Origin: an uncultured Bdellovibrionales bacterium
GTDB taxonomy: Bacteria > Bdellovibrionota > UBA1018 > CAIPTA01
NCBI GenBank assembly: GCA_964551325.1
Contig: CAZKBU010000003.1
Span: 287,672-351,671 of the forward strand
DNA: 64,000 nt
Direction of reading: 5' to 3'
Positions 48,364-64,000 of this stretch are shown piece by piece. The notes beneath the pieces are model-generated. The model made no database searches and was not told the origin of the DNA. It saw only the letters and a program-made list of their open reading frames with translations. Positions within the stretch are counted from its first letter, which is position 1. The number at the start of each line of letters is the position of its first letter. Both the position numbers and the translations under genes were made by a program.

Positions 48364-49349
48364 GTTTTCTTCTCTTCAGTGCCGACGCCTCCGCATCCTG
48401 GCTTCACTGGTGCGACGATGTGCCGAACGCGCAACGGACTCGCATCGAGCGTGATCTCGAGGAGTTTTCGCTTCTTCCCGCGGTTCAGGAGGATCCAATT
48501 CTTGCGCGTATGTTAGAGCTCCGGGAGGCTACACCGGAAGCTTTTCTCGAATGGATTCGTGCCCGCGTGAAATATGTTACCGGGCGCAAATTCGATCTCG
48601 ATGCTCCCGGAGTTACCGTGGTGTTGCGCGAGGGCGTGAACTATCCGCAGAAGCGAGAATTACCCTGGGGAGTCGCCGCCAAACAGCCGGCACCCGCTCA
48701 CGAGTCGCTGGAGCAGCCCAAAAGCGTAACAGAAATGTCGAACCTAGGATCAGCGGTGTTTCTTGATGGAAAACTCGCTGGCAATCTTTTGGGAATGCGA
48801 TTGCCCGGAATTGCCGAGCCGGTTCCCGTGACCTCGCCGCGAGTAGGAGTAGTGCAAATCGACCGGGGGCTCTTCCAGAGCCCCGATCCGGACAGACTCG
48901 CCGCTCGCCTTCATAGAGTGAGCACTCTCCTTCACGAGGCGCGCCACTCCGATGGAAACGGAAAGAGTCTGGGTTTTTTTCACTTTGTTTGCCCGGACGG
49001 ATCCGACTATCCGGGTGAAGAAGCCTGCGACGTGGCCGAAAACGGCTCCTACGCCATCGAAGCCCGGGCCTTGAAAATCTTCGCTTCCACTTGCGGAAAA
49101 GACTGCACAAAAAAAGAGCGGGAAATTCTCAGGGTAGAAGCCGCCGATATGCTTGCCCGTGTTTACGATGAGCTTCCCGCATTTTCCGGCGAAGATGCGA
49201 TGCCGCTAAGAAAAAAATGTCTGGAGCGCGGCGATCGATCAGAAGAGTGCCGAAAGGTGTTAACGGAGGCCGAGGGCGGGATGGTTCCGATCGTAAAGGC
49301 GTCCTGGTGGGACACGCGTCCTGAGACTCTCACACTGCCACGGGAATGA
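48333..49349 (+). CDS. secreted HEARH-motif Cys-rich family protein, paralogue 3
   Basis: ORF 48279..49349; probable start at Met19 (48333) giving signal-like LGLSFLLFSADASA; overlaps paralogue 2 by 31 nt; HRVSTLLHEARHSDGNGKSLGFFH; HEARH at 48933..48947. Confidence 0.65.
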   Translation: MGHYARILGLSFLLFSADASASWLHWCDDVPNAQRTRIERDLEEFSLLPAVQEDPILARMLELREATPEAFLEWIRARVKYVTGRKFDLDAPGVTVVLREGVNYPQKRELPWGVAAKQPAPAHESLEQPKSVTEMSNLGSAVFLDGKLAGNLLGMRLPGIAEPVPVTSPRVGVVQIDRGLFQSPDPDRLAARLHRVSTLLHEARHSDGNGKSLGFFHFVCPDGSDYPGEEACDVAENGSYAIEARALKIFASTCGKDCTKKEREILRVEAADMLARVYDELPAFSGEDAMPLRKKCLERGDRSEECRKVLTEAEGGMVPIVKASWWDTRPETLTLPRE

Positions 49350-51009
49350 TTCGGAACTGACCCACATCCACGAGGCCCTTGTCGGTGAGCTTAAGATGAG
49401 GGATCACCGGTAAGCTCAGAAACGCCAGTTGAAGGAACGGCTCTGCGAGGGAGCAGCCCGCGGCGTGGCTGGCAGCATGAAGGTCCCGCAAAGATTTCTC
49501 CACCCGATCGGCGGAGAGTGGAGTCATGAGGCCCCCGAATGGGAGAGCCAACTCGGCCATAACCGCTCCGTTATGGACCACGCAAAATCCGCCGCCGCTT
49601 CGAATCAAGGACTGGAAGGCGAGAGTCATGTCGTGAGTATCTGAACCCACGCAGATGAGATTATGACTGTCGTGTCCCACGCTGGAGGCGATCGCGCCGC
49701 GGAAGTTATCGCCAAATCCTTTCACATAACCGTTGGCCGGGCGGCTGCCATGGCCATAGCGCTCGAGAACTGAAAGTCGGGCCACTCCCGGAGCGTTGTG
49801 AGGAAGTGTGTGGTGATGGGTAATAATCTTTCCCTCTTCCACGCCGATTACATGCACATGACCCGCCGGACCTTCGAGGTCCTTCGGTGCGGGTGCAGCG
49901 GCACGTACCGTATTGGGAAAGGACGTCGCCGAAATCGTAGGGGTTGAAACCTCAGGTAGGGGAATCCCTCGGCAAAACACTTCGCGGATAGAAACCTGGC
50001 GAACGTCGTCGAGAAGCAGAAGGTCCGCTCGCCAACCCGGGGCCACAGCGCCCTTCCGGTCCGGGCCTCGATCCAGCCCGTAGTGCCGGGCCACGCTCCA
50101 GGAGCTGGCCCGGTAGGCTACCTCTGGTGCTACTCCCCCGCGTATCGCTTCCCGTACCAGCCAGTCAATGTGTCCTTCTCGGGCAATGTCGAGAGGGTTG
50201 CGGTCGTCGGTACAGAAGCCCACGCTCGTGGACGTGGCAAGCTTCACAAGCGGCAGAAGAGTGTGAAGGTCTTTGGCCACGCTTCCCTCTCGAATCCAAA
50301 CGGAAATTCCCTTGGTGAGCTTTTCCTCCGCTTCGGGTAGCTGGGAGGATTCGTGGCAGCAGGAAATTCCACACGCGGCATAGGCCGAGAGTTCGCGCCC
50401 CCGGAGGAGAGGGGCGTGGCCGTCGAGTGGGCGATCGGAGAATGCCTGAAGTTTCTCGTGAACGATCGGATCGCCATGGAGCACACCCGGAACGTTCATC
50501 ATCTCCGCAAGTCCAAGAGTCTTCGGATGATCCTTTAGCGGAAGAAGGTCCTTCGCTCCGAGCACCCCAGCCCCGTTGGTCTCCATTCCGGTGGCCGGCA
50601 CGCACGAGGGGAGCATCACCCTAAGATCGAGTGGGAGCGTCTCCGCAGCGCGAAGAAAATATCGAATTCCTTCCACGCCGATTACGTTGGCGATCTCATG
50701 AGGATCGGCGATCACGGTGGTGGTGCCGCGAGGAAGTACGGTAGAGGAAAAATTTTCCGGAATGAGCAGCGAACTTTCAATGTGCACATGGGCGTCGATG
50801 AAACCGGGTACAAGAAATTTTCCCCGTCCGTCGATCTCCCGAATGGCCTGAAGACCTGGCTCGAGTGCCACTATCACCCCATCGGCTATAGCCACGTCGC
50901 CCGTGTGCCAGGAGCAGGAAAAGACGTCGAGCCAAGTTACGTTACGGAAGATCAAGTCGCAGGGGGCTCGCCCTTGGGCGGCGTCGAGGCGTCGAAGTAG
51001 AGAGCTCAT
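49330..51009 (-). CDS. ade: adenine deaminase
   Basis: ORF runs to 51087; more likely start at Met27 (51009), removing the head-on start overlap with 51060(+); GFIDAHVHIESS metal-binding motif, adenine-deaminase subfamily of amidohydrolases. Confidence 0.8.
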   Translation of the reverse strand: MSSLLRRLDAAQGRAPCDLIFRNVTWLDVFSCSWHTGDVAIADGVIVALEPGLQAIREIDGRGKFLVPGFIDAHVHIESSLLIPENFSSTVLPRGTTTVIADPHEIANVIGVEGIRYFLRAAETLPLDLRVMLPSCVPATGMETNGAGVLGAKDLLPLKDHPKTLGLAEMMNVPGVLHGDPIVHEKLQAFSDRPLDGHAPLLRGRELSAYAACGISCCHESSQLPEAEEKLTKGISVWIREGSVAKDLHTLLPLVKLATSTSVGFCTDDRNPLDIAREGHIDWLVREAIRGGVAPEVAYRASSWSVARHYGLDRGPDRKGAVAPGWRADLLLLDDVRQVSIREVFCRGIPLPEVSTPTISATSFPNTVRAAAPAPKDLEGPAGHVHVIGVEEGKIITHHHTLPHNAPGVARLSVLERYGHGSRPANGYVKGFGDNFRGAIASSVGHDSHNLICVGSDTHDMTLAFQSLIRSGGGFCVVHNGAVMAELALPFGGLMTPLSADRVEKSLRDLHAASHAAGCSLAEPFLQLAFLSLPVIPHLKLTDKGLVDVGQFRIIPVAV

Positions 51010-51059
51010 AGAGGGAATGCTACCGCGGCTTTTGGAGGCACGCACACTTTTGTGCCAGA

Positions 51060-51929
51060 ATGACCGCGATGAAGACCGATGGAACAAAACGTTATGCTGC
51101 TGTGCTTTCTCTCACAGAGATGGGGCTCGGGAGCTTACTCCACTCCCTTCACATCCCTCTGGCCGGGCACGCCCTTTCCCTGAACCAGGGAGCGATTCTC
51201 ACATTCGCGCTCAAGCGAGCCGAAAACAGGCGAAAGGCCGTGGAAGGGAGCGCAGCGATTTCCTTGGCGGCCGCTGGAATGAAAGCCCTGTCCCCGGCGG
51301 GAAAGCGCCTCACTCCGATGCTGGGAATTTCAGTGCAGGGCTTTCTTTACGCGCTCGGCACGGCGCTGGGGGGGCGAAATCTGGCGGGGGCAGTGCTGGG
51401 AATGGCTCTCCTTTCCGTGTGGGCGTTTGCTCAGCCCGTGCTTTTGGCTTGGATCATTTTCGGCAAAGAGCTTTTTTATTCCGTTTTTGATCTTTGGCAG
51501 GGCTTGGCGGAAAAAATTGGGTTGCCGGTGGAGACTGGCATCTGGGTGTTGGCAGCGGTGGTGGCGTTGAAAGTACTAGCGGGAGTGGGCGTGGGAGCTT
51601 TGAGCTGGTTGGCAGCGCCCGCGCGCGAGGAGAGTTACATCGCAGGTCTTTCCGAGCGGGTAACCCGGGAGTTCCATCGCATGCGTGGTCCCGTGGAGGT
51701 TGAGTCGGGACGCAGGCTGGCGGTGCTTGCGCTGCGGGATATGGCGCGCCCGTGGTTTGTGGCGAGTTTCGGAGTTTCCTTGGCGTGTTTTTTCGCCTTT
51801 CGAGATAGCAACGTGGAAGCAGCCGTGGTCTATGGTTTTCGGGTTTTGTTGACGGGTTGGCTCGCGTTCTGGTTTTTTCGGTGGGCGGCCAAGCGATGGC
51901 AACTTTGGGAGAAATGGAATGAGAATTAA
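51060..51929 (+). CDS. hypothetical integral membrane protein
   Basis: 289 aa; 6-7 hydrophobic helices; sits inside the purine-catabolism cluster. Confidence 0.45.
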   Translation: MTAMKTDGTKRYAAVLSLTEMGLGSLLHSLHIPLAGHALSLNQGAILTFALKRAENRRKAVEGSAAISLAAAGMKALSPAGKRLTPMLGISVQGFLYALGTALGGRNLAGAVLGMALLSVWAFAQPVLLAWIIFGKELFYSVFDLWQGLAEKIGLPVETGIWVLAAVVALKVLAGVGVGALSWLAAPAREESYIAGLSERVTREFHRMRGPVEVESGRRLAVLALRDMARPWFVASFGVSLACFFAFRDSNVEAAVVYGFRVLLTGWLAFWFFRWAAKRWQLWEKWNEN

Positions 51930-52488
51930 GCCGCTGGCAGATTATCCGCTTCTGGTGCGCCTGATTTTTTGGGCGCAACGAAAAAAATACGGTGAGGTGC
52001 TTTTGCCAGCTCGAATCTGGGGTCGTTCGCCGAAGCTGCTCTATGGTCTTCAGTGTTTTTATCGAGCTATTGATCGTAAAAGTTCCCCGATTGAACCCGC
52101 TCTACGGGCTTTGATCAATGTGAAGGTTTCTCAGATCAACCACTGTGCGTTCTGTGTAGACATCAGCAGTTCGCTTCTCGAAAAACGCGGAGTGTCGGCT
52201 GAAAAAATAGCGGCCTTGCCCCATTTTATGGAGACCGCGCTTTTTTCCTCAAGGGAACGTGTTGCATTAGCCTACGCTGTGGCTATCACTCTGCCGGAGA
52301 GAAGAGTTGACGATGCTTTGTTTCAGGAATTGAGAAAAGAGTTTTCCGAGGACGAGGTTGTGGAGCTTACGGCCCTGATCGGGTACCAAAACCTCTCTAG
52401 CAAATTCAACGCTGCTTTGGAGGTGCCGCCCCAGGGGTTTTGTCTTGTAGGGCGGGCTTCATACTCAGAAGCTCCGCGGCCACACTGA
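51919..52488 (+). CDS. carboxymuconolactone decarboxylase / AhpD-like family protein
   Basis: INHCAFCVD CxxC-type AhpD core motif; 189 aa; 83-nt convergent overlap with xdhC. Confidence 0.55.
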   Translation: MRIKPLADYPLLVRLIFWAQRKKYGEVLLPARIWGRSPKLLYGLQCFYRAIDRKSSPIEPALRALINVKVSQINHCAFCVDISSSLLEKRGVSAEKIAALPHFMETALFSSRERVALAYAVAITLPERRVDDALFQELRKEFSEDEVVELTALIGYQNLSSKFNAALEVPPQGFCLVGRASYSEAPRPH

Positions 52489-53221
52489 TCGCAATTTCCT
52501 GCGGATCATTGCCGCCGATTGAAAGGCCGATGGGCGAGCGCAGCTCCTCGATCAGTGCAGGCGGAACTCCACTTTCTTCCAGTTCCCGGCGCATTTTTCC
52601 CGCTTTCACTTGGCTGCCCATGGCACCGATGAACGGGGCCGACGGATGCACGCGAAACAGTTCACGAAGAATCGGCATGTCCGTGGCATGGCCCTGGGTC
52701 ATCACCACGAAAAACGCCGTAGATGGAAGTGATGCCACAAGATTTGCAGGTTCCGCCACCAGCTCAACTCGGAGATTCGGGGCTGATGGAAGGCGAGCAA
52801 TCCACTCATTCCTCGGATCAACGCAGGTGATTCGGCAGGAAAGCGGCAGCAACACGCGCACCAGGGCCTGGGCCACATGGCCCGCTCCAAAGATCACGAT
52901 TTCCCAGGCGCTTGAGGCGTGGGGTTCAAAGAGGTAGGTGGTCTCGCCTCCGCAGGTCATGCCGATGTCGCGCTGAAGATTCCAAGTAGCGAGCCATGGC
53001 GCGGTTTCCATTTCTGCGAGCATTCTCTGAGATTCTCTGATGCAGCGAGCTTCGATCTTACCGCCCCCCACAGTGCCGTGATGTAAGCCCCTTGCCGTAA
53101 TAATCGCCTTTGCCCCCGGATCCGACGGCGCACCACCGCGAACTCCCACCAGGGTGACCACCACAAATGGTGTGCCCAAACGCATAAGTTCTTCGGCTGC
53201 GGAAAAATGTGTCAACGCCAC
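52406..53221 (-). CDS. xdhC: xanthine dehydrogenase accessory/maturation factor XdhC
   Basis: XdhC/CoxI-like N-domain plus Rossmann-like VIFGAGHVAQALVRVL; stop/start overlap with xdhB. Confidence 0.7.
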   Translation of the reverse strand: MALTHFSAAEELMRLGTPFVVVTLVGVRGGAPSDPGAKAIITARGLHHGTVGGGKIEARCIRESQRMLAEMETAPWLATWNLQRDIGMTCGGETTYLFEPHASSAWEIVIFGAGHVAQALVRVLLPLSCRITCVDPRNEWIARLPSAPNLRVELVAEPANLVASLPSTAFFVVMTQGHATDMPILRELFRVHPSAPFIGAMGSQVKAGKMRRELEESGVPPALIEELRSPIGLSIGGNDPQEIAISVAAELLSMKPALQDKTPGAAPPKQR

Positions 53222-55572
53222 TCCTCGAATCGCTCTGGATCAATGGCACGAAAAACCTCTTCCTGCGTGGCTGGGAGCTCCAGTTCGGGAAGCTTTTCCT
53301 TCCATGACGGCAATCCTCGGAGGGCGTCGTGAATTGCGGTCCAAACGGAAATCGCCAAAAGGAGAGGAGGTTCTCCAACCGCTTTCGTGCCCCGCACGTT
53401 TACGCTGTTGTGGGGATTATCCAGTAGGTCGATGTTAAATTCCCGCGGCGTATCCTGAATGTTCGGAATCTTGTAGGTGGAGGGGGCGTGGGAGAGGAGC
53501 AGGCCGCCTTCCGAGTAGTGAAGTTTTTCCGTGGTCACCCATCCCATGCCTTGCACGAAAGCTCCCGCCACCTGACCTCGGTCGAGAGACTCGTTCACGG
53601 GGCGTCCTAAATCCATCAGAATGTCCACCCGTCGAACCTTTGTTTCGCCAGTGTGAGAGTCGATCTCCACTTCCGAGCACGCGGCACCTTGGGTGAAGTA
53701 GAGAAACGCTCTTCCCTGACCAGTGAGTTTATTGAAGGTGAGGTGAGGAAACTTGTAGTGAGCATACTCCGACAGAGAAACTCGGTTCAGGTAGGCCTCG
53801 TTAACCACATCTTGAAACGAAACTTTTCGCTTCGGATCGGCGCGATCCACCACATATCCGTTACAAAAATCCACCGCTGGTTCTTCCGCTGGAATCACCG
53901 CTTCGGACTCGGTGCCGAGGCCGGCGGTTTTGGCGGCCCAACGCTCGCTCGGGAGCTGCATCAGGCGAAGGGCGATATGACCAAGTCGGTGACGGATGCG
54001 AAAGGAGGCCACTTCAGCGGCGGCTCCATTCAAGTCGGTACCCGACGATGCGGCAGTGGGAGAGGTGTTGGCGTTTTTTTCCGTAGACGTGGGCATCAGC
54101 CGCACCGATACGGCGGGTAAACCGAACACATCGGCCACGATCTTTCCAATTCGCGTATTTACACCTTGGCCCATTTCCGTGGCGCCAGTGCTGACCTGAA
54201 GCGAGCCGTCTCGGTGAATCACAACAAGAGCATTTGCTTGGTTCAGGTACCGAGTCGTGAATGAGATACCGAATTTCACGGGCGTGAGAGAGAGTCCTCG
54301 CCGCGTGGCTTGCGACTTCCGATTATGAGTCTCGATCTCTCGTCTACGAGCCCGATACGCGCAGCTTTTCTCTAAGCGGGAGAAAAGTTCGGGAAGTAGG
54401 TTATTTTCCACCTTCTGGCCGTAGGGGGTTATGTCGTGGTCCGGCCCCTCGTAACAGTTGATCCGTCTCACATCGAGCGGGTCCATTTTCAGAAAGTGGG
54501 CGATCTCTTCCACGATACGTTCGATGGTGGCCACGCCCTTGGGGCCGCCAAAACCGCGAAACGCCGTGTGGGGATGAAAATTGGTCCGGCAAACCTGGCC
54601 GCGCACTTGAAAATCGGGAATGAAATACGCGTTGTCGGTGTGGAGCATCGCCCGCTCCATGATGGCAGTGGAGAGATCCGCGCACGCGCCACCGTCGGAG
54701 AAAAGATTCACATCAAGAGCGAGGATACGGCCCTTCTGATCGAATCCCACCTTCCAATGGTTTTCGAAGGGGTTCCGCTTACCAGTGATCACCATGTCGT
54801 CGTCTTTGGTGAGCGCGATGCGGGCCGGTCGTCCGAGTTTTTGGGCGGCGAGGGCGGCATACGCGGCGAATGGAGCAGCCTGGGATTCTTTTCCGCCAAA
54901 AGCACCGCCCATGCGCTTCACCACACAAATCACCCGGGAGTAGTCGATGCCGAGAGCGTGAGCTACCACATGCTGCACCTCGGAGGGATGTTGGGCGGAA
55001 GAGTGGACCTCGATCACACCGTCTTCCCGGGGAATGGCGGCGGCGGCCTGGCTTTCGAGATAGAAGTGCTCTGCGCCTCGAATCACGATGGTACCTTCCA
55101 GACGATGTGGAGCGCTTAGGAGGGCGCTTTCAGCATCTCCGCGGGCAATTGTTCTTTCGAATCCAATAAACGACTTGCGGCTCCTAGCCTCTTGGATGGA
55201 GAGAATGGGATTCAGAATTTCCCAATCCACCTTCACTAAGTCTCGAGCCAGGCGCGCAGCGGTGGGGGAGTCGGCGACCACGAGCGCATAGGGCTCGCCG
55301 CAATAATTTACTTCTTCGTGGGCGAGAAGAGGTTGATCCTGAAAAACTGTGCCCCAGAGGTTCTCGTGAAAATCGTCGGCTGTGAACACGGCCACCACGC
55401 CGGGTGCCTTTGTGGCAGCGAGAGTGTGGAGGCGCTTAATACGGGCCCGGGCATGAGGGCTCCAACACACCTCCACATAGACCTCGCCGCGCACGGGCGG
55501 ACGATCGTCGATATACTCGCTGCGCCCCGTAACGTGACTTCGCGCAGAATCGTGGGAGGCATCGCGTTTCAC
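53212..55572 (-). CDS. xdhB: xanthine dehydrogenase molybdopterin-binding subunit
   Basis: 786 aa; aldehyde oxidase/xanthine dehydrogenase a/b hammerhead and MoCo-binding domains (GGAFGGKE, QGMGW motifs). Confidence 0.9.
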   Translation of the reverse strand: MKRDASHDSARSHVTGRSEYIDDRPPVRGEVYVEVCWSPHARARIKRLHTLAATKAPGVVAVFTADDFHENLWGTVFQDQPLLAHEEVNYCGEPYALVVADSPTAARLARDLVKVDWEILNPILSIQEARSRKSFIGFERTIARGDAESALLSAPHRLEGTIVIRGAEHFYLESQAAAAIPREDGVIEVHSSAQHPSEVQHVVAHALGIDYSRVICVVKRMGGAFGGKESQAAPFAAYAALAAQKLGRPARIALTKDDDMVITGKRNPFENHWKVGFDQKGRILALDVNLFSDGGACADLSTAIMERAMLHTDNAYFIPDFQVRGQVCRTNFHPHTAFRGFGGPKGVATIERIVEEIAHFLKMDPLDVRRINCYEGPDHDITPYGQKVENNLLPELFSRLEKSCAYRARRREIETHNRKSQATRRGLSLTPVKFGISFTTRYLNQANALVVIHRDGSLQVSTGATEMGQGVNTRIGKIVADVFGLPAVSVRLMPTSTEKNANTSPTAASSGTDLNGAAAEVASFRIRHRLGHIALRLMQLPSERWAAKTAGLGTESEAVIPAEEPAVDFCNGYVVDRADPKRKVSFQDVVNEAYLNRVSLSEYAHYKFPHLTFNKLTGQGRAFLYFTQGAACSEVEIDSHTGETKVRRVDILMDLGRPVNESLDRGQVAGAFVQGMGWVTTEKLHYSEGGLLLSHAPSTYKIPNIQDTPREFNIDLLDNPHNSVNVRGTKAVGEPPLLLAISVWTAIHDALRGLPSWKEKLPELELPATQEEVFRAIDPERFEEWR

Positions 55573-56990
55573 AGGGATCCCCCCGCTTCGTCGAAGAACT
55601 TCTTCAGAAAAGCTTCGGCGAGTCCCCGTCGAAAAGCACTCGATCCGCGGAGATCGGATAGTGGCGAGATTTCTTTTTGCAGAGCGTTTCGTGCTTCGTG
55701 GAATGCCTCTTTATCGAGACGACGCCCAAGGAGCGCCTTCTCCGTGGCCGGCAGGCGAAGAGCGGTTGCGGCCACGCCGCCGTAGGCGATGGAGATCTGT
55801 TCGAGAGTTTCATTCCGTTTCTTCCAACGAAATGCCGCGTTTACGGCGGAAATATCGAGATCCTTTCGCTGGGATGCCTTGAAGATGCGAACCACTTCAT
55901 TCTTCTTCGGAAGATCGAAAATCACATGGGTCACGATTTCTCCCGGACGGAGAGCGGTTTTCTTGTAGCCGAGGAAAAAATTCCGGAGTGGAACTTTGCG
56001 CTTTCCCTTGGGTCCGTGGACTTCCACATCCGCCTCGAGCACGAGGAGCGCGGGAGGGGTGTCGGCGATTGGAGAAGCGTTCACCACGTTGCCCACGAGA
56101 GTCGCTACGTTCTTGATTTGCGGTGAGGCGAACAGATCCAGAAATCGGCCGAGCTCGGAGTTTTTTGTAGCTTGCCTAACGTTGGCCAAAGTAACCCGGG
56201 CACCGACCCGAAGCCGGCCTTTGGTTGCTTTCATTTCATAAAGCTCCGAAACCTGGTGCAGGCTCAGAAGATGAGTGAGGCGGTGCCGATATTTATTGTG
56301 AACCACCCCTAAATCAGTGGCTGCACCTGCGATCCGCACTTGCTTATTTTTTTTGATCCACGCCAGGGCGGCACGGAGAGTGGTCGGGGCGAAAAAGGAA
56401 TAGTCGGCAGTCTCAAGAAGGAGGGGTTTTCGGAGCAGAGTCCTCAACTCCCGCTTTTGGGCCGGGGAAAGAAATCGCTTTTCCACCGACTCGCAGGCGC
56501 TCACATTCACCGAGCATGCCGCGTCCAAAATCGACTGGTAGCCGGTGCAGCGGCATAGGTTGCCGGTGAGGGCATTGGCGGCGTCCTTCTGGGTGATGCC
56601 TTCGTGGGTGGGGATTTTCTTCTCCACGAGGCCCGTGAGCGACATCACGAATCCCGGTGTGCAGTATCCGCATTGGGAGCCATGACAATCCACCATGGCC
56701 TGTTGAACTGGCGACAGCTTTTGCTCTGTACCGAGGGCTTCCACCGTGATGAGGCTGGAGCCGTGGAGCTGTCCGAGCGGGGCGATGCAGGAGTTGATGG
56801 GAAGAAACCGCCCCCGCTTTTCGAGGGGAAACCAACGCAAGACTGTGCAGGCGCCGCAGTCGCCCTCAGCGCAGACGACCTTGGTGCCCGTCAGGCCTCG
56901 TTCCCTGCGAAGGTATTCCGCGAGCATCAGGGGGGCGTGGTCGGCGCCGACCTCCACCCGTTCTCCATTCAGATGGAAGACGATTTTCAT
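55569..56990 (-). CDS. xdhA: xanthine dehydrogenase small subunit (2Fe-2S + FAD-binding)
   Basis: CAEGDCGACTV and CGYCTPG [2Fe-2S] motifs; FAD-binding PCMH domain; ATGA overlap with xdhB. Confidence 0.9.
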   Translation of the reverse strand: MKIVFHLNGERVEVGADHAPLMLAEYLRRERGLTGTKVVCAEGDCGACTVLRWFPLEKRGRFLPINSCIAPLGQLHGSSLITVEALGTEQKLSPVQQAMVDCHGSQCGYCTPGFVMSLTGLVEKKIPTHEGITQKDAANALTGNLCRCTGYQSILDAACSVNVSACESVEKRFLSPAQKRELRTLLRKPLLLETADYSFFAPTTLRAALAWIKKNKQVRIAGAATDLGVVHNKYRHRLTHLLSLHQVSELYEMKATKGRLRVGARVTLANVRQATKNSELGRFLDLFASPQIKNVATLVGNVVNASPIADTPPALLVLEADVEVHGPKGKRKVPLRNFFLGYKKTALRPGEIVTHVIFDLPKKNEVVRIFKASQRKDLDISAVNAAFRWKKRNETLEQISIAYGGVAATALRLPATEKALLGRRLDKEAFHEARNALQKEISPLSDLRGSSAFRRGLAEAFLKKFFDEAGGSL

Positions 56991-57037: not shown

Positions 57038-58183
57038 ATGGAACTATGGTTGGAATATCTACTTCGTTTCTCCCATCTGGTGGCGGGGATCGCCTGGATC
57101 GGGAGCTCCTTTTATTTCATCTGGCTCGACAGTAGCTTCGAACCGCCGGAGACGCCGCGTCGTAACGTCGAGGGTGAGCTCTTCATGGTCCACGGTGGTT
57201 TTTACTACCAGGTGGAGAAGAAAAAGATCTATCCCGGCGAACTTCCCCGGGTGCTGCATTGGTTCAAGTGGGAGGCGACTCTCACCTGGGTGACCGGGAT
57301 CGTGCTCCTGGCGGTGCTTTACTTCCTTAAAGGGGCGAGTCTTCTGATAGATCCGTCTGTGATGGCTCTCACCCAGGCCCAGGCGGTTACCCTGGCGCTG
57401 GGGCTCATCGCGGGTTGCTGGCTGGTCTATGATCTTCTCTGGAATCCACGGGTACCGAAGCCGCTGAGCACGGCCGTGTCGGTGGTTTTCTTCGCACTTC
57501 TGATTTGGGGCCTTACCCGCGTATTTAGCGGGCGCGGTGCTTTCATCATGACGGGAGCGATTTTCGGCAGTCTCATGTTGGCCAATGTGTGGATGAGAAT
57601 TCTCCCTGGGCAAGCAAAAATGCTGCGTGAAGCACAGGAGGGAAGAGTTCCCGATTACTCGGTGGGATTGAAGTCGAAAACCCGCTCCGTACACAACACC
57701 TACTTCACGTTTCCGGTGCTTTTCATCATGCTGAGCAACCATTACCCGCAGATCTACAACCACGCTTGGAACTGGCTTCTGTTGATCGTGCTTGCGGTGA
57801 GCGGCGCTCTCACACGCCATGCGATGGTCACGAAGCGGCCCTTAGAGCGATGGACCCTTTTCCCTGCGGCGATGGGACTTGCCGCGTTGGTATGGGCTTC
57901 GGGTCACACCGGATCTGCGTCCATGGGGGGCGGCGCTCGACCTACCTGGGCGGAAGTGGCGCCGGTAATCGAGAGGCGTTGTGCGTCTTGCCACAGCCTC
58001 CGGCCCACCGATGATGTATGGAAGGTGGCGCCTCTTGGCGCGATTTTCGATTCAGAGAATTCTTTGCGAGCGAAAGCAGAAAAAGTAATGCTTCAAGTGG
58101 TCACTGCCCGCACGATGCCTCTTGGCAATAAAACCGCGATGACCGACGAGGAGCGGGACCTAGTGCGTCGGTTCTTGGAATAG
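57038..58183 (+). CDS. candidate membrane cytochrome-c urate hydroxylase (PuuD-like: multi-TM DUF989-type domain + C-terminal haem-c domain)
   Basis: 381 aa; ~7-8 TM helices followed by a C-terminal soluble domain with CASCH haem-binding motif; divergently adjacent to xdhABC. Confidence 0.5.
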   Translation: MELWLEYLLRFSHLVAGIAWIGSSFYFIWLDSSFEPPETPRRNVEGELFMVHGGFYYQVEKKKIYPGELPRVLHWFKWEATLTWVTGIVLLAVLYFLKGASLLIDPSVMALTQAQAVTLALGLIAGCWLVYDLLWNPRVPKPLSTAVSVVFFALLIWGLTRVFSGRGAFIMTGAIFGSLMLANVWMRILPGQAKMLREAQEGRVPDYSVGLKSKTRSVHNTYFTFPVLFIMLSNHYPQIYNHAWNWLLLIVLAVSGALTRHAMVTKRPLERWTLFPAAMGLAALVWASGHTGSASMGGGARPTWAEVAPVIERRCASCHSLRPTDDVWKVAPLGAIFDSENSLRAKAEKVMLQVVTARTMPLGNKTAMTDEERDLVRRFLE

Positions 58184-60097: not shown

Positions 60098-63000
60098 TTA
60101 TTTCGAAAACACCCTAATTCGATTCACTCCGCCGTCGGGCCATGTCTCGAGTCTGATCTCGGATATTTCACCGGCATAATTCACGGGAATAATCTTGCGG
60201 TTGCCGGCAAAGGCTTTTACCGGTACTCGTCCGCCGGAAAGGTCTATCCAGCCCGTGGGTGTTCGCCCCCAGAGAGCCACTTCCACCGGGTTGTTGTTTA
60301 CAAAAAAGGTGAAGTCGAGCTCCACTTTTTTGATTCGGGCGGAGTGTTCAAGTGCGATCGTGACCTCTTCGTGATGTCCGGGAACTCGACTGCGGGCGCT
60401 CTCGAGTCCGTCGAACATGTGAATGGGCGGGAAGGGCGAGATTACCTGAGCTGCCGGCCCATAGTGCTCATTGGAAGCATGCACCACTCTGCTACCGGCG
60501 AACGGAATCGTGAGGGGCTTTTTCGCTTTGGGGATTGCGTCCGAATAGCGACCGAAGCCGGGGCTAAATCCTGGAGGTGGCTCACTCCACAGGCCGAGAC
60601 GGGTGAGGCCGCCATCGGGGCCGGCTTCCACTCGAATTTCTTGAAATTCTTCCGTGAGTGAATTCAGATCCACGCGGCAATAGCCGTGGCCCACAAGCTT
60701 CACGGCAGGGAGAAACTCCTTCCACGGATCTTTTGAAGACCGTCGACCCAGCAGTCGCGCCCATTCCATCTGATTCCCATCGTGGAAGCGGGTTGAAAGC
60801 TCCACAAATCGAACGCGGCCCGGGCGCAATAGGCGAAGCTCCAAATACTCTTGCCCTGTTTCGTTGTGCCGGGCTGTTTCCCAGCTATCCATGATTTTCC
60901 CTTGCCGTCCGAAGAGCTCTGGATCAAAAACCGGCTCGTGAGAACTCACCAGGTTTTCCGCGCGCGCGAATTTCTGGTTCGAGCAGCGCAAAACGAAGGC
61001 TCCCGCAGCGAGATTCGATGCGGCTGCTGCGCTCACCGGTCCCTTCACGAGAATTTCCTCCGGGAGGTCAGGCAAAAAGGCGTCGAAGAGAAGCTTCTTG
61101 TAGCCGAGATTCACGATTTGCTCTTGTGGTAAGCTGCTCGACTGAAAATCGTGAGTGAACTCTCCTACGCCCTGAATGCCGAGGGCGCGAATCAGGGTCT
61201 GGGCGACTTCCGCCACAAAAGGCACGGCTTCATTATCGCCTTCAGAAAAAATAACGAATCCTTTGCCACGGTCCGGGCCCGCAAAACAGTGAACATAGAT
61301 GGCCCGGTAGCCTTCGTTGGCACCCTGATGAATCATCAAGCGATTCGAGCCTGCTTCGGCCACAAAAACACCGAGGCCCATAAAGCATCCCATGAAATCC
61401 CGGCAGCCTCGGTCGGTTCCATGGAGCATCTGCACTGCTGTGTCGTGGGAGATTGGTCCCGCCCCGTTCACGCTATGATAGGCGTCTTCCAAAGACTGGA
61501 GGAAACGGGCCATTCCTCGAGCTGTGGCGTAGCCTCCGGCAGCGAAAGCGGGGAAACGCAGATGACCAGGTGCGAGCCCATCGATTTCGGAGGTGTCGAG
61601 GGTGATTTCGGGAAATGCTTGGAGAAATTCTTTCGTGGCCAGGGCCGCAGGCTTTCCCGTGTTTTTTTCCACAAGGTGTTGGAGCACTAAGTAGCCTCCA
61701 CCCGAGTAGTGAAACTCTCGTCCCGGCTTGGCGATGACCTTCACCGGATCGTAACCGTGTTTACCCTGGATAAGCTCTTCCACTGGAGGCACCGGCCCTG
61801 AAAATCCCTTCACATAGTGCATGGAAAGGGCGCTGTGGCTCATGAGGTGGGCCAAGGTTACTCCCTCCATGCCCGGAATTTCCTCCACTTTGCGATTCAC
61901 GTCGCGGAAAAGTTCACAGCAATAGGCGCTCGCCACGGTTTTACTGAGCGACGCAATTTGAAACTTCGAATTCGGCTGGGCACATCCGAGAGCAATTTCC
62001 TGCACATGACCGAGGTGAATAACGGCGAGGGAGGCGGCCCGGATTCCGTGTTTCTTGCGTACCACCTCAAGGCCTGAAAGTCCGCAGGCTTCGTGAATGC
62101 GTTTTCGTGAAATTTCCCAAAGTGCTTCGCGGGCGGCAGTAATCTCTTCGTTTCGAGAGCGGGATATTCGTGCTTGCAGAATTTTTAGGAGTTCCTCCCC
62201 GGTTTTTCCTTTCGCCGAAACGAGAAACTTGAAACCGAACTTTTTTCGATACTCATCTCCCAAGGAACAAAGAACGGCCTTTTCTGTTTTTACTTCCGCC
62301 TGCTCGCCTGCCGCCAGAGCGTCTAAAGTGCGGGAGGATTGACCGATATCGCCGTGAAAAGACGCGGCCTCCTGAATCTCCGCTTCGGAAAAACTCTTCA
62401 CGAGGCTTTCCGCAAAGGGCAGGTCCACAACCGCCCGGCGGGTCATTTCATCTGCAAATCGGCGGCACCCGCACACTTCAAACCAGTGATTCCATTTCTC
62501 CACCTTGGGGGGGAGACGGAACTTATCCGCGTCCAAACGGACGGCGGCGGCCCAGGGGTCGGAAGCATTGCGTACTTCATCTAGTGTGAACGGGAGGAGA
62601 AGTTCAGTGGCGAACTCCGCGGGTTCGGGATCGGTCATGAGCTGGAGCATGAGCCGCTGAGCGATTGGGTACCAGCGAGACGTGCGCTCATCCCATTTTA
62701 CTTGCACGATTTTCTTCTCATTCGAAAGATCGCGACGAATGAAATTCATCTCTTCGTGAACGATGCAAAGGAAATCTTCCAAGGAGAAGCGTCCGTGGCG
62801 AATCTCGTGCCAGACTTCCCATCGCGAACGCTCGGCAGTGGCCAGGTCGTCCATCACACGCACGGCTTCCCCTTCCACCACCGTAGGGAGAGCCACGCAC
62901 CCGTTTCCGCTCAACCAGTCCGTGAGGTACTGAAGTGACTGGAACACGTTGTAGCGGATTTCGTCTGGGTGATGATTGGGAATGAAATCGGACTCTTTGA

Positions 63001-64000
63001 TGTCGGCAACGATGAGCGATCGAACGTATTGGGGATCGTTCTTATCCAGGCCCTCGATATCGGGCCCGTCGATAAAATTAAAAAGATCGTGGTGGAACTC
63101 TTGAGGGAGGAGACCGCTCACCAGTTCCGTGAGTGGGCCGGGGTTGCCTTGGGAGCGCAGCTTCCAGGCTTCCACAAGCGCTAGCCCGATTCGCACGAAG
63201 TCGGGGTGCGCCACCCAGTAACCGGTGAGGTTGCGCTTCATCTGTGTCACTACGTCGCGGATAAAACCCTTGAGCGTTACATGTAGAGAGCGTTCTTTTC
63301 CGGTGATCGGAAGGATTCCATACATTCCCCCCACCTGAATTCCACCGCGGGAACCCACCGCATCGGCTAGAAGCAGATGGGAGGCTTTGATGTACTTGAT
63401 TACGATATCGGGATCGGCCTTCACAGGAATCCGATAGTGCGGCTCTTCTCGGAAAATGCGAGCCATGGACGCGAGATAGTCGTGCCAGCCAAGCGAAGCG
63501 CCGGCGAAATAAGGATAAAGTGCATCCATGATTTCGTGGGCACGAAGAATGGCCCGAGGGTTCTCCAACACGATCATGAGACGAACGGTGCCGAGCTTGT
63601 ATTCGGGATGAATTTTTTGGATGCGCGCTTCCGCCGCTCTGATCATCTTGGCTACGTAAGCAGCCTCTTCCTCGTTTTCGAGTTTCGGCACGTAGAACAC
63701 GAGGGCGCGCGGGTTATGCCAGTTACGGAAAAGATGAAGTGCGAAATCCCAGAGATGGAGGGGGATAGGGTTTTCTTTCCAGAATAGAAATGGCGCGGGC
63801 ATGGCGAGGCCCGGGAAGCGTTTGATCGGAAGGGATAGGTGGTCTTTGGCTAACTCATAGCTACGACCGTTCTCCTCCAAATGTAGGGAGCCATCGAAAC
63901 AACGGGAAAGATTCTCGGCCGCGTCGCAGAGATTTTGTCGGAGTGGAGTTTTTGAGTCTTCGTCGTCGGCTCCCCACATCGGCGAGGCACCTTTTTCGAG
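60098..64000 (-). CDS. multidomain purine-catabolism fusion protein: malate synthase - OHCU decarboxylase - serine beta-lactamase-like - allantoicase (x2 repeats); N-terminus runs off the window
   Basis: reading frame is open from Met at 63979 to the window edge, and the malate synthase core starts too early to be complete; malate synthase motifs FYVPKLENEEEA, ASLGWHDY, GGIQVGGMYGILP (~aa 1-475); OHCU decarboxylase HGDIGQ...FGFKFLVSAKGKTGEELL (~aa 480-630; 62090..62542); SxxK serine-hydrolase motif IASLSKT (~aa 640-945; 61145..62062); two allantoicase repeats with DSWETAR (~aa 960-1293; 60101..61102). Confidence 0.75.
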   Translation of the reverse strand, partial: LEKGASPMWGADDEDSKTPLRQNLCDAAENLSRCFDGSLHLEENGRSYELAKDHLSLPIKRFPGLAMPAPFLFWKENPIPLHLWDFALHLFRNWHNPRALVFYVPKLENEEEAAYVAKMIRAAEARIQKIHPEYKLGTVRLMIVLENPRAILRAHEIMDALYPYFAGASLGWHDYLASMARIFREEPHYRIPVKADPDIVIKYIKASHLLLADAVGSRGGIQVGGMYGILPITGKERSLHVTLKGFIRDVVTQMKRNLTGYWVAHPDFVRIGLALVEAWKLRSQGNPGPLTELVSGLLPQEFHHDLFNFIDGPDIEGLDKNDPQYVRSLIVADIKESDFIPNHHPDEIRYNVFQSLQYLTDWLSGNGCVALPTVVEGEAVRVMDDLATAERSRWEVWHEIRHGRFSLEDFLCIVHEEMNFIRRDLSNEKKIVQVKWDERTSRWYPIAQRLMLQLMTDPEPAEFATELLLPFTLDEVRNASDPWAAAVRLDADKFRLPPKVEKWNHWFEVCGCRRFADEMTRRAVVDLPFAESLVKSFSEAEIQEAASFHGDIGQSSRTLDALAAGEQAEVKTEKAVLCSLGDEYRKKFGFKFLVSAKGKTGEELLKILQARISRSRNEEITAAREALWEISRKRIHEACGLSGLEVVRKKHGIRAASLAVIHLGHVQEIALGCAQPNSKFQIASLSKTVASAYCCELFRDVNRKVEEIPGMEGVTLAHLMSHSALSMHYVKGFSGPVPPVEELIQGKHGYDPVKVIAKPGREFHYSGGGYLVLQHLVEKNTGKPAALATKEFLQAFPEITLDTSEIDGLAPGHLRFPAFAAGGYATARGMARFLQSLEDAYHSVNGAGPISHDTAVQMLHGTDRGCRDFMGCFMGLGVFVAEAGSNRLMIHQGANEGYRAIYVHCFAGPDRGKGFVIFSEGDNEAVPFVAEVAQTLIRALGIQGVGEFTHDFQSSSLPQEQIVNLGYKKLLFDAFLPDLPEEILVKGPVSAAAASNLAAGAFVLRCSNQKFARAENLVSSHEPVFDPELFGRQGKIMDSWETARHNETGQEYLELRLLRPGRVRFVELSTRFHDGNQMEWARLLGRRSSKDPWKEFLPAVKLVGHGYCRVDLNSLTEEFQEIRVEAGPDGGLTRLGLWSEPPPGFSPGFGRYSDAIPKAKKPLTIPFAGSRVVHASNEHYGPAAQVISPFPPIHMFDGLESARSRVPGHHEEVTIALEHSARIKKVELDFTFFVNNNPVEVALWGRTPTGWIDLSGGRVPVKAFAGNRKIIPVNYAGEISEIRLETWPDGGVNRIRVFSK

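What the first reader, a model, noticed from the sequence alone, without database searches (positions are those of the whole stretch)
61145..62062. Serine beta-lactamase-like domain in the position expected for allantoinase: candidate non-canonical allantoinase
Within the fusion, the domain order OHCU decarboxylase -> [SxxK serine-hydrolase domain] -> allantoicase mirrors the pathway order allantoin -> allantoate -> ureidoglycolate. The only missing step between the flanking domains is ring-opening of the cyclic ureide allantoin. No canonical allantoinase (amidohydrolase AllB type or PuuE polysaccharide-deacetylase type) is visible in the window. A beta-lactamase/PBP-fold serine hydrolase acting on a cyclic amide is chemically plausible. 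This would be a new allantoinase class, but it is an inference from domain order only.
Basis: inference. Interest (0 to 1): 0.8.

Follow-up and report, generated by a model that had tools for sequence, protein, structure and literature searches.

The report
Candidate serine-type allantoinase domain
A beta-lactamase-like serine hydrolase domain sits inside a giant purine-breakdown fusion enzyme of a predatory-type bacterium, and it is the only unassigned domain in gene clusters that encode every step from xanthine to glyoxylate except allantoin ring-opening, so it is very probably a third, previously undescribed kind of allantoinase.

Summary
A PF00144 beta-lactamase-fold domain (64 bits against a cut-off of 27) lies between an OHCU decarboxylase domain and an allantoicase domain in one ORF on the minus strand. 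The ORF also has an N-terminal malate-synthase-like domain and runs off the window end.

- All 80 best loci from GTDB species genomes, nearly all titled as Bdellovibrionota lineages, carry the same four-domain fusion. HIU hydrolase and urate hydroxylase PuuD usually lie next to it, and XdhABC often does.
- In a second, divergent clade, a two-domain beta-lactamase–allantoicase protein sits in an unbundled cluster. That cluster has separate AllA ureidoglycolate lyase, OHCU decarboxylase, PuuD, HIU hydrolase and XdhABC genes.
- In both settings allantoinase is the only step without a protein, and this domain is the only part without a job.
- No AllB-type allantoinase was found in the window or in 1.12 Mb of flanks. 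No Pfam match to either canonical allantoinase type appeared among the window ORFs and recurrent neighbours scanned.
- The catalytic Ser-x-x-Lys, Tyr and His-Gln motifs are invariant in 114 members.
- Standalone eukaryotic homologs (haptophyte, chlorarachniophytes, pelagophyte, ichthyosporean) mostly end in peroxisomal -SKL signals.

No paper describing such an enzyme was found. Biochemical proof and a whole-genome check for canonical allantoinases are still missing.

The parts
60098..64000 (-). Visible part (1300 codons plus stop) of a four-domain fusion ORF: malate-synthase-like, OHCU decarboxylase, beta-lactamase-like, allantoicase. The N-terminus lies beyond the window end.
   Evidence: Full-length homologs of about 1530-1600 aa with the same architecture occur in all 80 related loci.
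61076..62086 (-). Beta-lactamase/DD-peptidase-fold serine hydrolase domain (fusion aa 632-968). This is the candidate allantoinase.
   Evidence: PF00144 at 64.1 bits. AlphaFold model with pLDDT 92. Foldseek matches to family VIII esterase, R61 DD-peptidase, AmpC, D-amino-acid amidase and LACTB at 15-19% identity, TM about 0.65. Family alignment A1.
61940..61951 (-). SxxK motif: Ser677 (predicted nucleophile, codon 61949-61951), Leu, Ser, Lys680 (codon 61940-61942).
   Evidence: ASLSK is invariant in 114 of 114 family members. It aligns with S-x-x-K of alkaline D-peptidase and of the P. abyssi PBP homolog.
61700..61708 (-). Second motif, Tyr758-Ser-Gly760. It corresponds to YxN, with the Asn replaced by an invariant Gly.
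   Evidence: Invariant in 114 of 114 members. It aligns to Y-S-N of alkaline D-peptidase.
61304..61330 (-). Third motif on a predicted beta strand: His884-Gln-Gly-Ala-Asn888-x-Gly-x-Arg892. It corresponds to KTG/HTG.
   Evidence: H, N, G and R are invariant, and Q is present in 113 of 114 members. A strand spans domain residues 250-259 in the model.
62087..62485 (-). OHCU decarboxylase domain (aa 499-631). It produces (S)-allantoin.
   Evidence: PF09349 E 1.9e-17. PRK13798 and TIGR03180 matches.
60101..61009 (-). Allantoicase domain with two repeats (aa 991-1293). It consumes allantoate.
   Evidence: PF03561 E 3e-39. TIGR02961 covers model positions 9-323 of 324.
62570..64000 (-). Malate-synthase-like domain, cut by the window end. 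It is either a malate synthase or a ureidoglycolate lyase.
   Evidence: PF01274 and PF20659. Alignment with E. coli AceB shows R166, E250, D278, W365 and D447 kept and R276 changed to W. A standalone homolog lies next to allE and allC in Desulfosediminicola.
57038..58183 (+). Urate hydroxylase PuuD (membrane protein with a C-terminal CxxCH). It converts urate to 5-hydroxyisourate.
   Evidence: PF06181 E 4e-96. It neighbours the fusion in 56 of 80 loci.
52406..56990 (-). Xanthine dehydrogenase genes xdhA (55569-56990), xdhB (53212-55572) and xdhC (52406-53221).
   Evidence: The same genes lie near the fusion in about 20 related loci.
49330..51087 (-). Adenine deaminase. It is the only amidohydrolase-superfamily protein found in the window and is not an allantoinase.
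   Evidence: PF13382 Adenine_deam_C E 1.9e-51 together with Amidohydro_1. No tblastn hit with E. coli AllB.

Best explanation
The domain at 61076-62086 (minus strand) is a catalytically active serine hydrolase of the class C beta-lactamase/DD-peptidase fold. It serves as the allantoinase of this purine-degradation system.

Proposed pathway:
- XdhABC makes urate.
- PuuD oxidises urate to 5-hydroxyisourate.
- A separate HIU hydrolase makes OHCU.
- The OHCU decarboxylase domain of the fusion makes (S)-allantoin.
- Ser677 of the beta-lactamase-like domain, activated by Lys680 and Tyr758, attacks a ring carbonyl of the hydantoin. This gives an acyl-enzyme, which water resolves to allantoate.
- The adjacent allantoicase domain splits allantoate into ureidoglycolate and urea.
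- The N-terminal malate-synthase-like domain handles the last two-carbon step. It acts either as a ureidoglycolate lyase or as a glyoxylate-consuming malate synthase.

What is shown: the domain identity, the fold, the invariant catalytic residues, the conserved fusions and the gene clusters.

What is inferred: the substrate, the acyl-enzyme chemistry on allantoin, and any channelling between domains.
For: 1. The fold and motifs are real: PF00144, a pLDDT-92 model, Foldseek hits to serine beta-lactamase-fold hydrolases, and profile alignments that place SxxK and Y-S-x on the known motifs.
2. There is strong purifying selection on the active site. ASLSK, H715, H721-Y722, Y758-S-G, F809-P, H884-Q, N888 and R892 are invariant or nearly so in 114 members from bacteria and eukaryotes.
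3. The fusions are recurrent. All 80 best loci of 403 in GTDB species genomes carry MS-like, OHCU decarboxylase, BL and allantoicase in that order. Shorter OHCU-BL-Alc and BL-Alc forms also occur.
4. Context in the four-domain clade: HIU hydrolase was found in 57 of 80 loci by tblastn and lies directly upstream in most. PuuD is present in 56 loci, and Xdh genes are common.
5. Context in a divergent clade: locus L088 reads AllA, BL-Alc, OHCU decarboxylase, PuuD, HIUase, XdhA, XdhB, XdhC. Locus L091 reads OHCU decarboxylase, PuuD, HIUase, BL-Alc, AllA. Every step except allantoinase has a canonical protein.
6. E. coli AllB, AllA, AllC, AllD and AllE gave no tblastn hit in the window or in 1.12 Mb of flanks. 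No allantoinase family appeared among the recurrent neighbours or the window ORFs.
7. Of 99 standalone homologs, 54 end in a strict PTS1 tripeptide (37 in SKL). Named eukaryotic hosts are known. Peroxisomes house urate oxidase, HIUase, OHCU decarboxylase, allantoicase and MSL/UGL in fish (PMC8919083, PMC10120013).
Against: - No enzymatic data exist.
- Whole genomes could not be searched, so a canonical allB or puuE elsewhere in these genomes is not excluded. PuuE-type proteins were looked for only with Pfam, on the window ORFs and on recurrent neighbours. Not every flank ORF was scanned.
- No serine-nucleophile hydantoinase or allantoinase is known to me as a precedent.
- The Asn of YxN is replaced by Gly, and the third motif is HQG/HQA rather than KTG, so the catalytic machinery differs from that of characterised relatives.
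- Allantoin lacks the carboxylate that many enzymes of this fold use for substrate recognition.
- Many named eukaryotic members (Prymnesium, Aureococcus, Sphaeroforma, Bigelowiella) lack a PTS1.
- Peroxisomes also host many unrelated pathways.
Confidence: 0.7

Rival explanations
1. The domain is an active hydrolase of the ureide pathway but acts on another intermediate. Examples are ureidoglycolate, the non-natural (R)-allantoin, or a side product of urate oxidation. Allantoin ring-opening would then be done by a canonical allantoinase encoded elsewhere in the genome.
For: The association with ureide enzymes shows pathway membership only, not the step. Whole genomes could not be checked. The four-domain loci lack an AllA-type lyase. 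If the malate-synthase-like domain is a true malate synthase, ureidoglycolate cleavage is also unassigned there.
Against: In loci L088 and L091 an AllA homolog (33-45% identical to E. coli AllA) lies next to the BL-allantoicase gene, so that step is covered there. HIU hydrolase and OHCU decarboxylase are also present. OHCU decarboxylase already yields (S)-allantoin, so a racemase-like role is not needed. The clusters would then be complete except for the one obligatory step, while carrying an extra enzyme with no required reaction.
Confidence: 0.15
2. The domain is an analog of HIU hydrolase. It would open the six-membered ring of 5-hydroxyisourate, a step that also has no gene in this window.
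For: The window contains no transthyretin-type HIU hydrolase, and HIU hydrolysis is also the cleavage of a cyclic amide.
Against: A PF00576 HIU hydrolase gene (E 8.5e-33) lies immediately upstream of the fusion on the same strand in most related loci. It was found in 57 of 80 loci by tblastn. It is also present in the unbundled clusters L088, L090 and L091. In this window that position lies beyond base 64000.
Confidence: 0.02
3. The domain is a non-catalytic spacer or scaffold that merely joins OHCU decarboxylase to allantoicase.
For: The Asn of YxN is lost and KTG is replaced. The window copy has two deletions relative to most family members.
Against: The Ser, Lys, Tyr and His of the catalytic motifs, and a further set of family-specific residues, are invariant in 114 members that share only about 35-50% identity overall. 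The domain also exists as a standalone protein of about 400 aa in eukaryotes. That makes no sense for a linker.
Confidence: 0.03
4. The domain is a generic peptidase, esterase or amidase whose substrate is unrelated to purine catabolism, like its nearest structural relatives. Examples are a D-peptidase or a family VIII esterase. It would be fused here by accident of history.
For: The best structural matches are esterases, DD-peptidases, D-amino-acid amidase and LACTB. NCBI names relatives simply 'serine hydrolase'.
Against: Identity to all solved structures is only 15-19%, and a single-sequence search of PDB finds nothing. Within this subfamily, every bacterial member whose architecture or context was examined is fused to, or clustered with, ureide-pathway enzymes. 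This holds in two divergent clades.
Confidence: 0.08

Closest known systems
AllB/DAL1-type allantoinase (amidohydrolase superfamily, binuclear metal centre with carbamylated lysine; EC 3.5.2.5)
   Same: The predicted reaction is the same, (S)-allantoin to allantoate. So is the position in the pathway, between OHCU decarboxylase and an allantoate-degrading enzyme.
   Different: There is no sequence or fold relationship. AllB is a TIM-barrel metalloenzyme, whereas this domain has the beta-lactamase fold with a Ser-Lys-Tyr active site and no metal ligands. tblastn with E. coli AllB finds nothing here.
PuuE-type allantoinase (polysaccharide-deacetylase/NodB fold, metal-independent), often clustered or fused with OHCU decarboxylase
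   Same: It is a precedent for a non-homologous allantoinase that was recognised by gene context in urate clusters (my knowledge of Ramazzina et al. 2008, not checked here). It shares the logic of fusion or clustering with uraD and uraH.
   Different: The fold is different. The window ORFs and the recurrent neighbours gave no PF01522 match. Here the fusion partner on the C-terminal side is allantoicase.
PF00144 serine hydrolases: class C beta-lactamases (AmpC), Streptomyces R61 DD-peptidase, alkaline D-peptidase, D-amino-acid amidase, family VIII esterases (IS11, EstB), LACTB
   Same: They share the fold (TM 0.6-0.7), SxxK at the start of a helix, the Tyr of the second motif, and a His-x-Gly-type third motif on a beta strand, as in R61 (HTG).
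   Different: Identity is only 15-19%. The second motif is Y-S-G, not Y-x-N, and the third is H-Q-G/A. There is a set of family-specific invariant residues (H715, H721, Y722, F809-P810, N888, R892). The protein is cytoplasmic or peroxisomal, not secreted. Its genomic context is the ureide pathway rather than cell wall, peptides or esters.
Eukaryotic malate-synthase-like ureidoglycolate lyase (MSL/UGL; Dembech et al. 2023, PMC10120013)
   Same: It is another case of a familiar fold recruited to a missing step of purine catabolism and targeted to peroxisomes by a PTS1. The N-terminal domain of this fusion is malate-synthase-like and linked to the ureide pathway.
   Different: This concerns the neighbouring domain, not the beta-lactamase-like one. 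The bacterial domain keeps W365 and changes R276 to W, whereas zebrafish UGL has R276I and W365M. Its activity is unknown.
Known bifunctional ureide enzymes such as allantoicase/OHCU decarboxylase fusions (NCBIfam PRK13797)
   Same: They also fuse consecutive or nearby steps of urate degradation in a single polypeptide.
   Different: Those fusions lack a domain between the two activities. Here a 340-aa serine hydrolase domain is inserted exactly where the intermediate step belongs.

Membership tests
PF00144 beta-lactamase / DD-peptidase (SxxK acyl-transferase) superfamily | Sequence match to the family profile above the curated threshold | tested here: met
   PF00144 scores 64.1 bits against a cut-off of 27, E 1.6e-17, aa 642-920. 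Homologs score 65-108 bits.
PF00144 beta-lactamase / DD-peptidase (SxxK acyl-transferase) superfamily | Motif 1: Ser-x-x-Lys at the N-terminus of a helix | tested here: met
   S677-L-S-K680 is invariant in 114 of 114 members. It lies at the start of helix 49-62 of the model and aligns to S-V-T-K and S-I-T-K of solved relatives.
PF00144 beta-lactamase / DD-peptidase (SxxK acyl-transferase) superfamily | Motif 2: Tyr-x-Asn | tested here: inconclusive
   The Tyr is present and invariant (Y758), but the Asn is invariably Gly (Y-S-G-G-G). The catalytic Tyr is kept and the motif as defined is not.
PF00144 beta-lactamase / DD-peptidase (SxxK acyl-transferase) superfamily | Motif 3: Lys/His-Thr/Ser-Gly on strand beta3 | tested here: inconclusive
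   The motif is H884-Q-G, or H-Q-A in 25 of 114 members, on a predicted strand. It is the His type, as in R61 HTG, but the middle residue is Gln. Equivalence is inferred from the position in the model, not from a residue-level structural superposition.
PF00144 beta-lactamase / DD-peptidase (SxxK acyl-transferase) superfamily | Three-dimensional fold (alpha/beta domain plus all-alpha domain) | tested here: met
   The model has pLDDT 92.1 and pTM 0.92. Foldseek gives probability 1.00 and TM 0.6-0.69 to 7spn, 2qmi, 3pte, AmpC, 2drw and 7v21.
AllB-type allantoinase (cyclic amidohydrolase superfamily) | Amidohydrolase TIM-barrel with His/Asp metal ligands and a carbamylated Lys; sequence similarity to AllB/DAL1 | tested here: not met
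   There is no PF01979 match in the fusion. tblastn with E. coli AllB finds nothing in the window or in the 80 loci, nor in L088-L093.
PuuE-type allantoinase (NodB / polysaccharide deacetylase fold) | PF01522-type domain | tested here: not met
   There is no PF01522 or TIGR03212 match in the fusion. None appeared among the window ORFs or recurrent neighbours scanned, nor in the precomputed Pfam lists for L088, L090 and L091.
Allantoinase as an activity (EC 3.5.2.5), regardless of fold | Hydrolysis of (S)-allantoin to allantoate | not testable with these tools
   It is inferred from gene fusion and cluster completeness only.
Allantoinase as an activity (EC 3.5.2.5), regardless of fold | Genomic complementarity: present where canonical allantoinases are absent and the rest of the pathway is present | tested here: inconclusive
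   This holds within the window (64 kb) and within up to 10 kb either side of 83 loci. Whole genomes could not be searched.

The most novel reading that the evidence does not exclude
This beta-lactamase-fold family is a third, serine-nucleophile class of allantoinase, unrelated to AllB and PuuE.
- It is the standard allantoinase of Bdellovibrionota, where it is built into a four-domain protein. Together with PuuD and HIU hydrolase, that protein would take urate to glyoxylate or malate.
- It would also be the peroxisomal allantoinase of diverse protists: haptophytes, chlorarachniophytes, pelagophytes, chrysophytes and ichthyosporeans.
- As a corollary, the bacterial malate-synthase-like family of about 680 aa (R276W) would be a prokaryotic ureidoglycolate lyase, a group so far reported only from eukaryotes.
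Probability: 0.55. Interest if true: 0.85.

Novelty: new variant of a known kind. Interest (0 to 1): 0.78.

Why it matters
Allantoinase has two known unrelated forms, the metal-dependent AllB and the metal-independent PuuE. A third form that uses a covalent serine mechanism on a hydantoin ring would be new enzymology for the beta-lactamase/PBP fold.

It would also close an annotation gap in the urate pathway of a whole bacterial phylum of predators, which take in large amounts of prey nucleic acid. The same gap would close in many marine protists, where purines and ureides are relevant nitrogen sources.

In addition, it would give a compact, naturally fused enzyme for urate-to-glyoxylate conversion. 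The prediction is directly testable with one recombinant domain and a Ser-to-Ala control.

Tried and rejected
- **HIU hydrolase analog.** Rejected, because a transthyretin-type HIUase gene is adjacent in most related loci.
- **Ureidoglycolate lyase or hydrolase.** Rejected as the main reading, because AllA sits next to the two-domain BL-allantoicase genes.
- **Non-catalytic spacer.** Rejected on motif invariance and on the existence of standalone homologs.
- **Extending the window.** I looked up the neighbouring 625-aa protein. Only a 2.3-kb Logan contig was found, with no extra context.
- **Contexts of standalone homologs on long contigs (L001-L003).** These look eukaryotic, with sparse gene calls, eEF1A and protein kinases, and were uninformative for gene clustering.
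- **Single-sequence search of PDB.** No hit. Only the profile search and the fold search reached solved relatives.
- **Foldseek against afdb50.** Not available on the machine.
- **Supplementary tables of PMC10120013.** Not held, so co-evolving orthogroups could not be checked for a beta-lactamase-like gene.
- **Literature searches.** I searched for a beta-lactamase-fold or serine allantoinase, for Bdellovibrio allantoicase, and for this fusion. Nothing relevant was found.
- **MS versus UGL for the malate-synthase-like domain.** I tried to decide from diagnostic residues. It matches neither signature (R276W, W365 kept), so this stays unresolved.
- **P0255.** This 'eukaryotic' BL-allantoicase transcript groups with the bacterial four-domain clade. 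It may be a bacterial contaminant or a fragment, so it was not used as independent evidence.
Full report
**1. What is in the window**

- The region 61145-62062 lies inside one long ORF on the minus strand. Its stop codon is at 60098-60100. The 21 bases upstream of the first ATG (63979) are also open, so the ORF runs off the window end.
- Pfam finds, in order: a malate synthase TIM barrel and C-terminal domain (aa 56-266 and 339-459), OHCU decarboxylase (523-628), Beta-lactamase PF00144 (642-920; 64.1 bits against a cut-off of 27), and two allantoicase repeats (993-1293). NCBIfam agrees for the three ureide-related parts and has no model for the beta-lactamase-like part.
- The family alignment shows that the domain continues to a conserved C-terminal helix ending at aa 968. 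The domain is best placed at 61076-62086.
- The neighbourhood is a purine-catabolism cluster: urate hydroxylase PuuD (57038-58183), XdhA/B/C (52406-56990) and adenine deaminase (49330-51087).
- A Pfam sweep of about 50 window ORFs found no AllB-type or PuuE-type allantoinase. tblastn with E. coli AllB found nothing.

**2. Is the domain a real, active enzyme domain?**

- An AlphaFold model built on 35 homologs is confident (pLDDT 92, pTM 0.92).
- The model matches family VIII esterases, the Pyrococcus PBP homolog, R61 DD-peptidase, alkaline D-peptidase, AmpC, D-amino-acid amidase and LACTB. TM is about 0.6-0.7, but identity is only 15-19%.
- A single-sequence search of PDB finds nothing. The family profile reaches the same proteins at E of about 1e-12.
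- That profile aligns S677-L-S-K680 with the SxxK motif of solved relatives, and Y758-S-G with their Y-S-N.
- In 114 members (81 bacterial fusions, two-domain forms and eukaryotic standalone proteins) these residues are invariant or nearly so: ASLSK, H715, H721-Y722, Y758-S-G, F809-P, H884-Q, N888, G890 and R892. Overall identity among the members is only about 35-50%.
- This pattern fits a conserved active site, not a linker. It differs from the canonical motifs in two ways: the Asn of YxN is always Gly, and the third motif is H-Q-G/A.

**3. Comparative genomics**

- A scan of one genome per GTDB species found 403 loci that encode a relative. The best 80 are titled almost entirely as Bdellovibrionota lineages (Bdellovibrionales, Bacteriovoracaceae, Halobacteriovoraceae, Oligoflexales, Silvanigrellaceae). 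They include the complete genome of Peredibacter sp. HCB2-198.
- In all 80, the domain sits in the same four-domain protein of about 1530-1600 aa. The window copy therefore lacks about 240 N-terminal residues.
- I clustered the flanking ORFs and annotated the recurrent clusters.
  - A 105-130-aa transthyretin-type HIU hydrolase usually lies directly upstream on the same strand. It was seen in 48 loci by clustering and 57 by tblastn.
  - PuuD is present in 56 loci.
  - XdhA/B/C are present in about 20 loci.
  - Nothing else is conserved apart from molybdenum-cofactor genes and unrelated housekeeping genes.
- This removes the rival that the domain replaces HIU hydrolase. In this window the HIU hydrolase gene would lie just beyond base 64000.

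**4. The decisive context**

- A profile search found complete two-domain proteins of about 730-750 aa, made of the beta-lactamase-like domain plus allantoicase.
- Two of them (P0249 and P0254) fall in a clade with the eukaryotic sequences, apart from the Bdellovibrionota clade. They sit in unbundled clusters:
  - L088 reads AllA-type ureidoglycolate lyase, BL-allantoicase, OHCU decarboxylase, PuuD, HIU hydrolase, XdhA, XdhB, XdhC.
  - L091 reads OHCU decarboxylase, PuuD, HIU hydrolase, BL-allantoicase, AllA.
- The AllA assignments were confirmed at 33-45% identity to E. coli AllA.
- In these clusters every reaction from xanthine to glyoxylate has a canonical enzyme except the hydrolysis of allantoin. 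The only domain without a function is the beta-lactamase-like one, and it is fused to the enzyme that uses the product.
- This also removes the rival that the domain handles ureidoglycolate.
- The domain order is always OHCU decarboxylase, then BL, then allantoicase.

**5. Eukaryotic members**

- Standalone homologs of about 400-450 aa occur in Bigelowiella natans, Amorphochlora amoebiformis, Prymnesium parvum, Aureococcus anophagefferens, Sphaeroforma arctica, a chrysophyte, and many unnamed transcriptomes and metagenomic contigs. Some lie on contigs that look eukaryotic.
- Of 99 standalone members with a complete C-terminus, 54 end in [SAC][KRH][LM], and 37 end in SKL. The signal usually follows a short extension past the last conserved helix.
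- A PTS1 points to peroxisomes. In fish, urate oxidase, HIU hydrolase, OHCU decarboxylase, allantoicase and the malate-synthase-like ureidoglycolate lyase are located or predicted there (PMC8919083; PMC10120013).
- This is supporting evidence only. It is not specific.

**6. The malate-synthase-like domain**

- Its closest relatives are standalone bacterial proteins of about 680 aa, at 55-70% identity. They occur in Desulfobulbales, Myxococcota, Bradymonadia and Planctomycetes.
- Against E. coli malate synthase A it keeps R166, E250, D278, W365 and D447, but R276 is changed to W. It is therefore neither a textbook malate synthase nor the zebrafish-type ureidoglycolate lyase, which has R276I and W365M.
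- In Desulfosediminicola flagellatus the standalone gene is followed by allE (45% identical to the E. coli protein) and allC.
- AllA is absent from the 80 four-domain loci and present where the malate-synthase-like domain is absent.
- This complementary pattern suggests that the domain may be a bacterial ureidoglycolate lyase. It remains unresolved, and it does not affect the main conclusion.

**7. Mechanism proposed (inferred)**

- Ser677 attacks a ring carbonyl of (S)-allantoin delivered by the neighbouring OHCU decarboxylase domain, with Lys680 and Tyr758 acting as general base and acid.
- The hydantoin ring opens to an allantoyl-enzyme, and water releases allantoate to the adjacent allantoicase domain.
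- H715, H721, Y722, N888 and R892 are candidates for binding the ureido and carbonyl groups.
- None of this chemistry has been tested.

**8. Comparison with what is known, and novelty**

- The domain is a member of the PF00144 superfamily by profile score, fold and SxxK. Its second and third motifs deviate from the canonical ones.
- It is not a member of either known allantoinase family.
- Six literature searches found no description of a beta-lactamase-fold or serine allantoinase, nor of this fusion. The searched library is incomplete, so prior description elsewhere cannot be excluded.
- I rate it as a new variant of a known kind. The fold is known and the reaction is known, but pairing them would define a third allantoinase class.

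**9. Limits**

- There is no biochemistry.
- Whole genomes could not be searched for allB or puuE.
- PuuE was screened only by Pfam, on the window ORFs, recurrent neighbours and precomputed annotations. Not every flank ORF was scanned.
- The taxonomy of loci L088 and L091 is unknown.
- The neighbour-joining tree is approximate.

**10. Verdict**

- Interest is high, because the prediction is specific, widespread in nature and testable with a simple assay.

Noticed in passing
window 62570-64000 (-); loci L093:8001-12278, L092: The malate-synthase-like domain belongs to a large family of standalone bacterial proteins of about 680 aa (55-70% identical; Desulfobulbales, Myxococcota, Bradymonadia, Planctomycetes). 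The family keeps the MS catalytic residues but has R276W. In Desulfosediminicola it is followed by allE and allC, and it is complementary in distribution to AllA. It is a candidate prokaryotic ureidoglycolate lyase, although PMC10120013 reported the UGL group as eukaryote-only.
   Followed up: partly
window 63980-64000 and beyond: The fusion ORF runs off the window end. Full-length homologs are about 1530-1600 aa, so about 240 N-terminal residues are missing. These residues have no Pfam match in homologs (aa 1 to about 245 of L027). In most related loci an HIU hydrolase gene directly precedes the fusion, so one is expected just outside the window.
   Followed up: partly
proteins P0008, P0012, P0015, P0019, P0020, P0024, P0026, P0028, P0031, P0041, P0043, P0188-P0213 and others: Standalone homologs of the domain, apparently eukaryotic, carry C-terminal PTS1 signals. 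Of 99, 54 are strict matches and 37 end in SKL. Named hosts are Bigelowiella, Amorphochlora, Prymnesium, Aureococcus, Sphaeroforma and a chrysophyte. A family shared between Bdellovibrionota and protists suggests horizontal transfer, direction unknown.
   Followed up: partly
window 58207-60084 (+): A 625-aa predicted multi-pass membrane protein with no Pfam match is wedged between puuD and the fusion gene. It has no counterpart at this position in the 80 related loci. An identical copy was found on a 2.3-kb Logan contig (SRR10807893).
   Followed up: partly
window 61076-62086 (-), alignment A1 columns about 200-260 and 400-445: The window's copy of the domain lacks two segments present in most family members. 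One is about 35 residues after the SxxK helix, and the other is about 15-20 residues before the FPAFAAG motif. All invariant residues are retained. Part of P0001 (80% identical over the overlap) looks the same.
   Followed up: no
window 57038-58183 (+): PuuD here is 381 aa and carries a C-terminal CASCH haem c motif. In related loci PuuD varies from about 390 to 610 aa, so the cytochrome part appears to vary in length between lineages.
   Followed up: no
window 51919-52488 (+) and 51060-51929 (+): A carboxymuconolactone-decarboxylase-family (CMD) protein and a 289-aa ORF with no Pfam match lie between the adenine deaminase gene and xdhC, inside the purine cluster. Their roles are unknown.
   Followed up: no
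P0337, P0376, P0390: Below about E 1e-45, the profile also picks up proteins with two or three tandem PF00144 domains and no ureide domains. These appear to be other beta-lactamase-fold subfamilies. They mark the approximate boundary of the family discussed here.
   Followed up: partly
window 20590-21540 (-) and 19654-20580 (-): An arginase-family protein lies next to an FHA-GGDEF diguanylate cyclase. The rest of the window is ordinary chromosomal content (alaS, recA, cinA, metH, pyruvate/2-oxoacid dehydrogenase genes).
   Followed up: no
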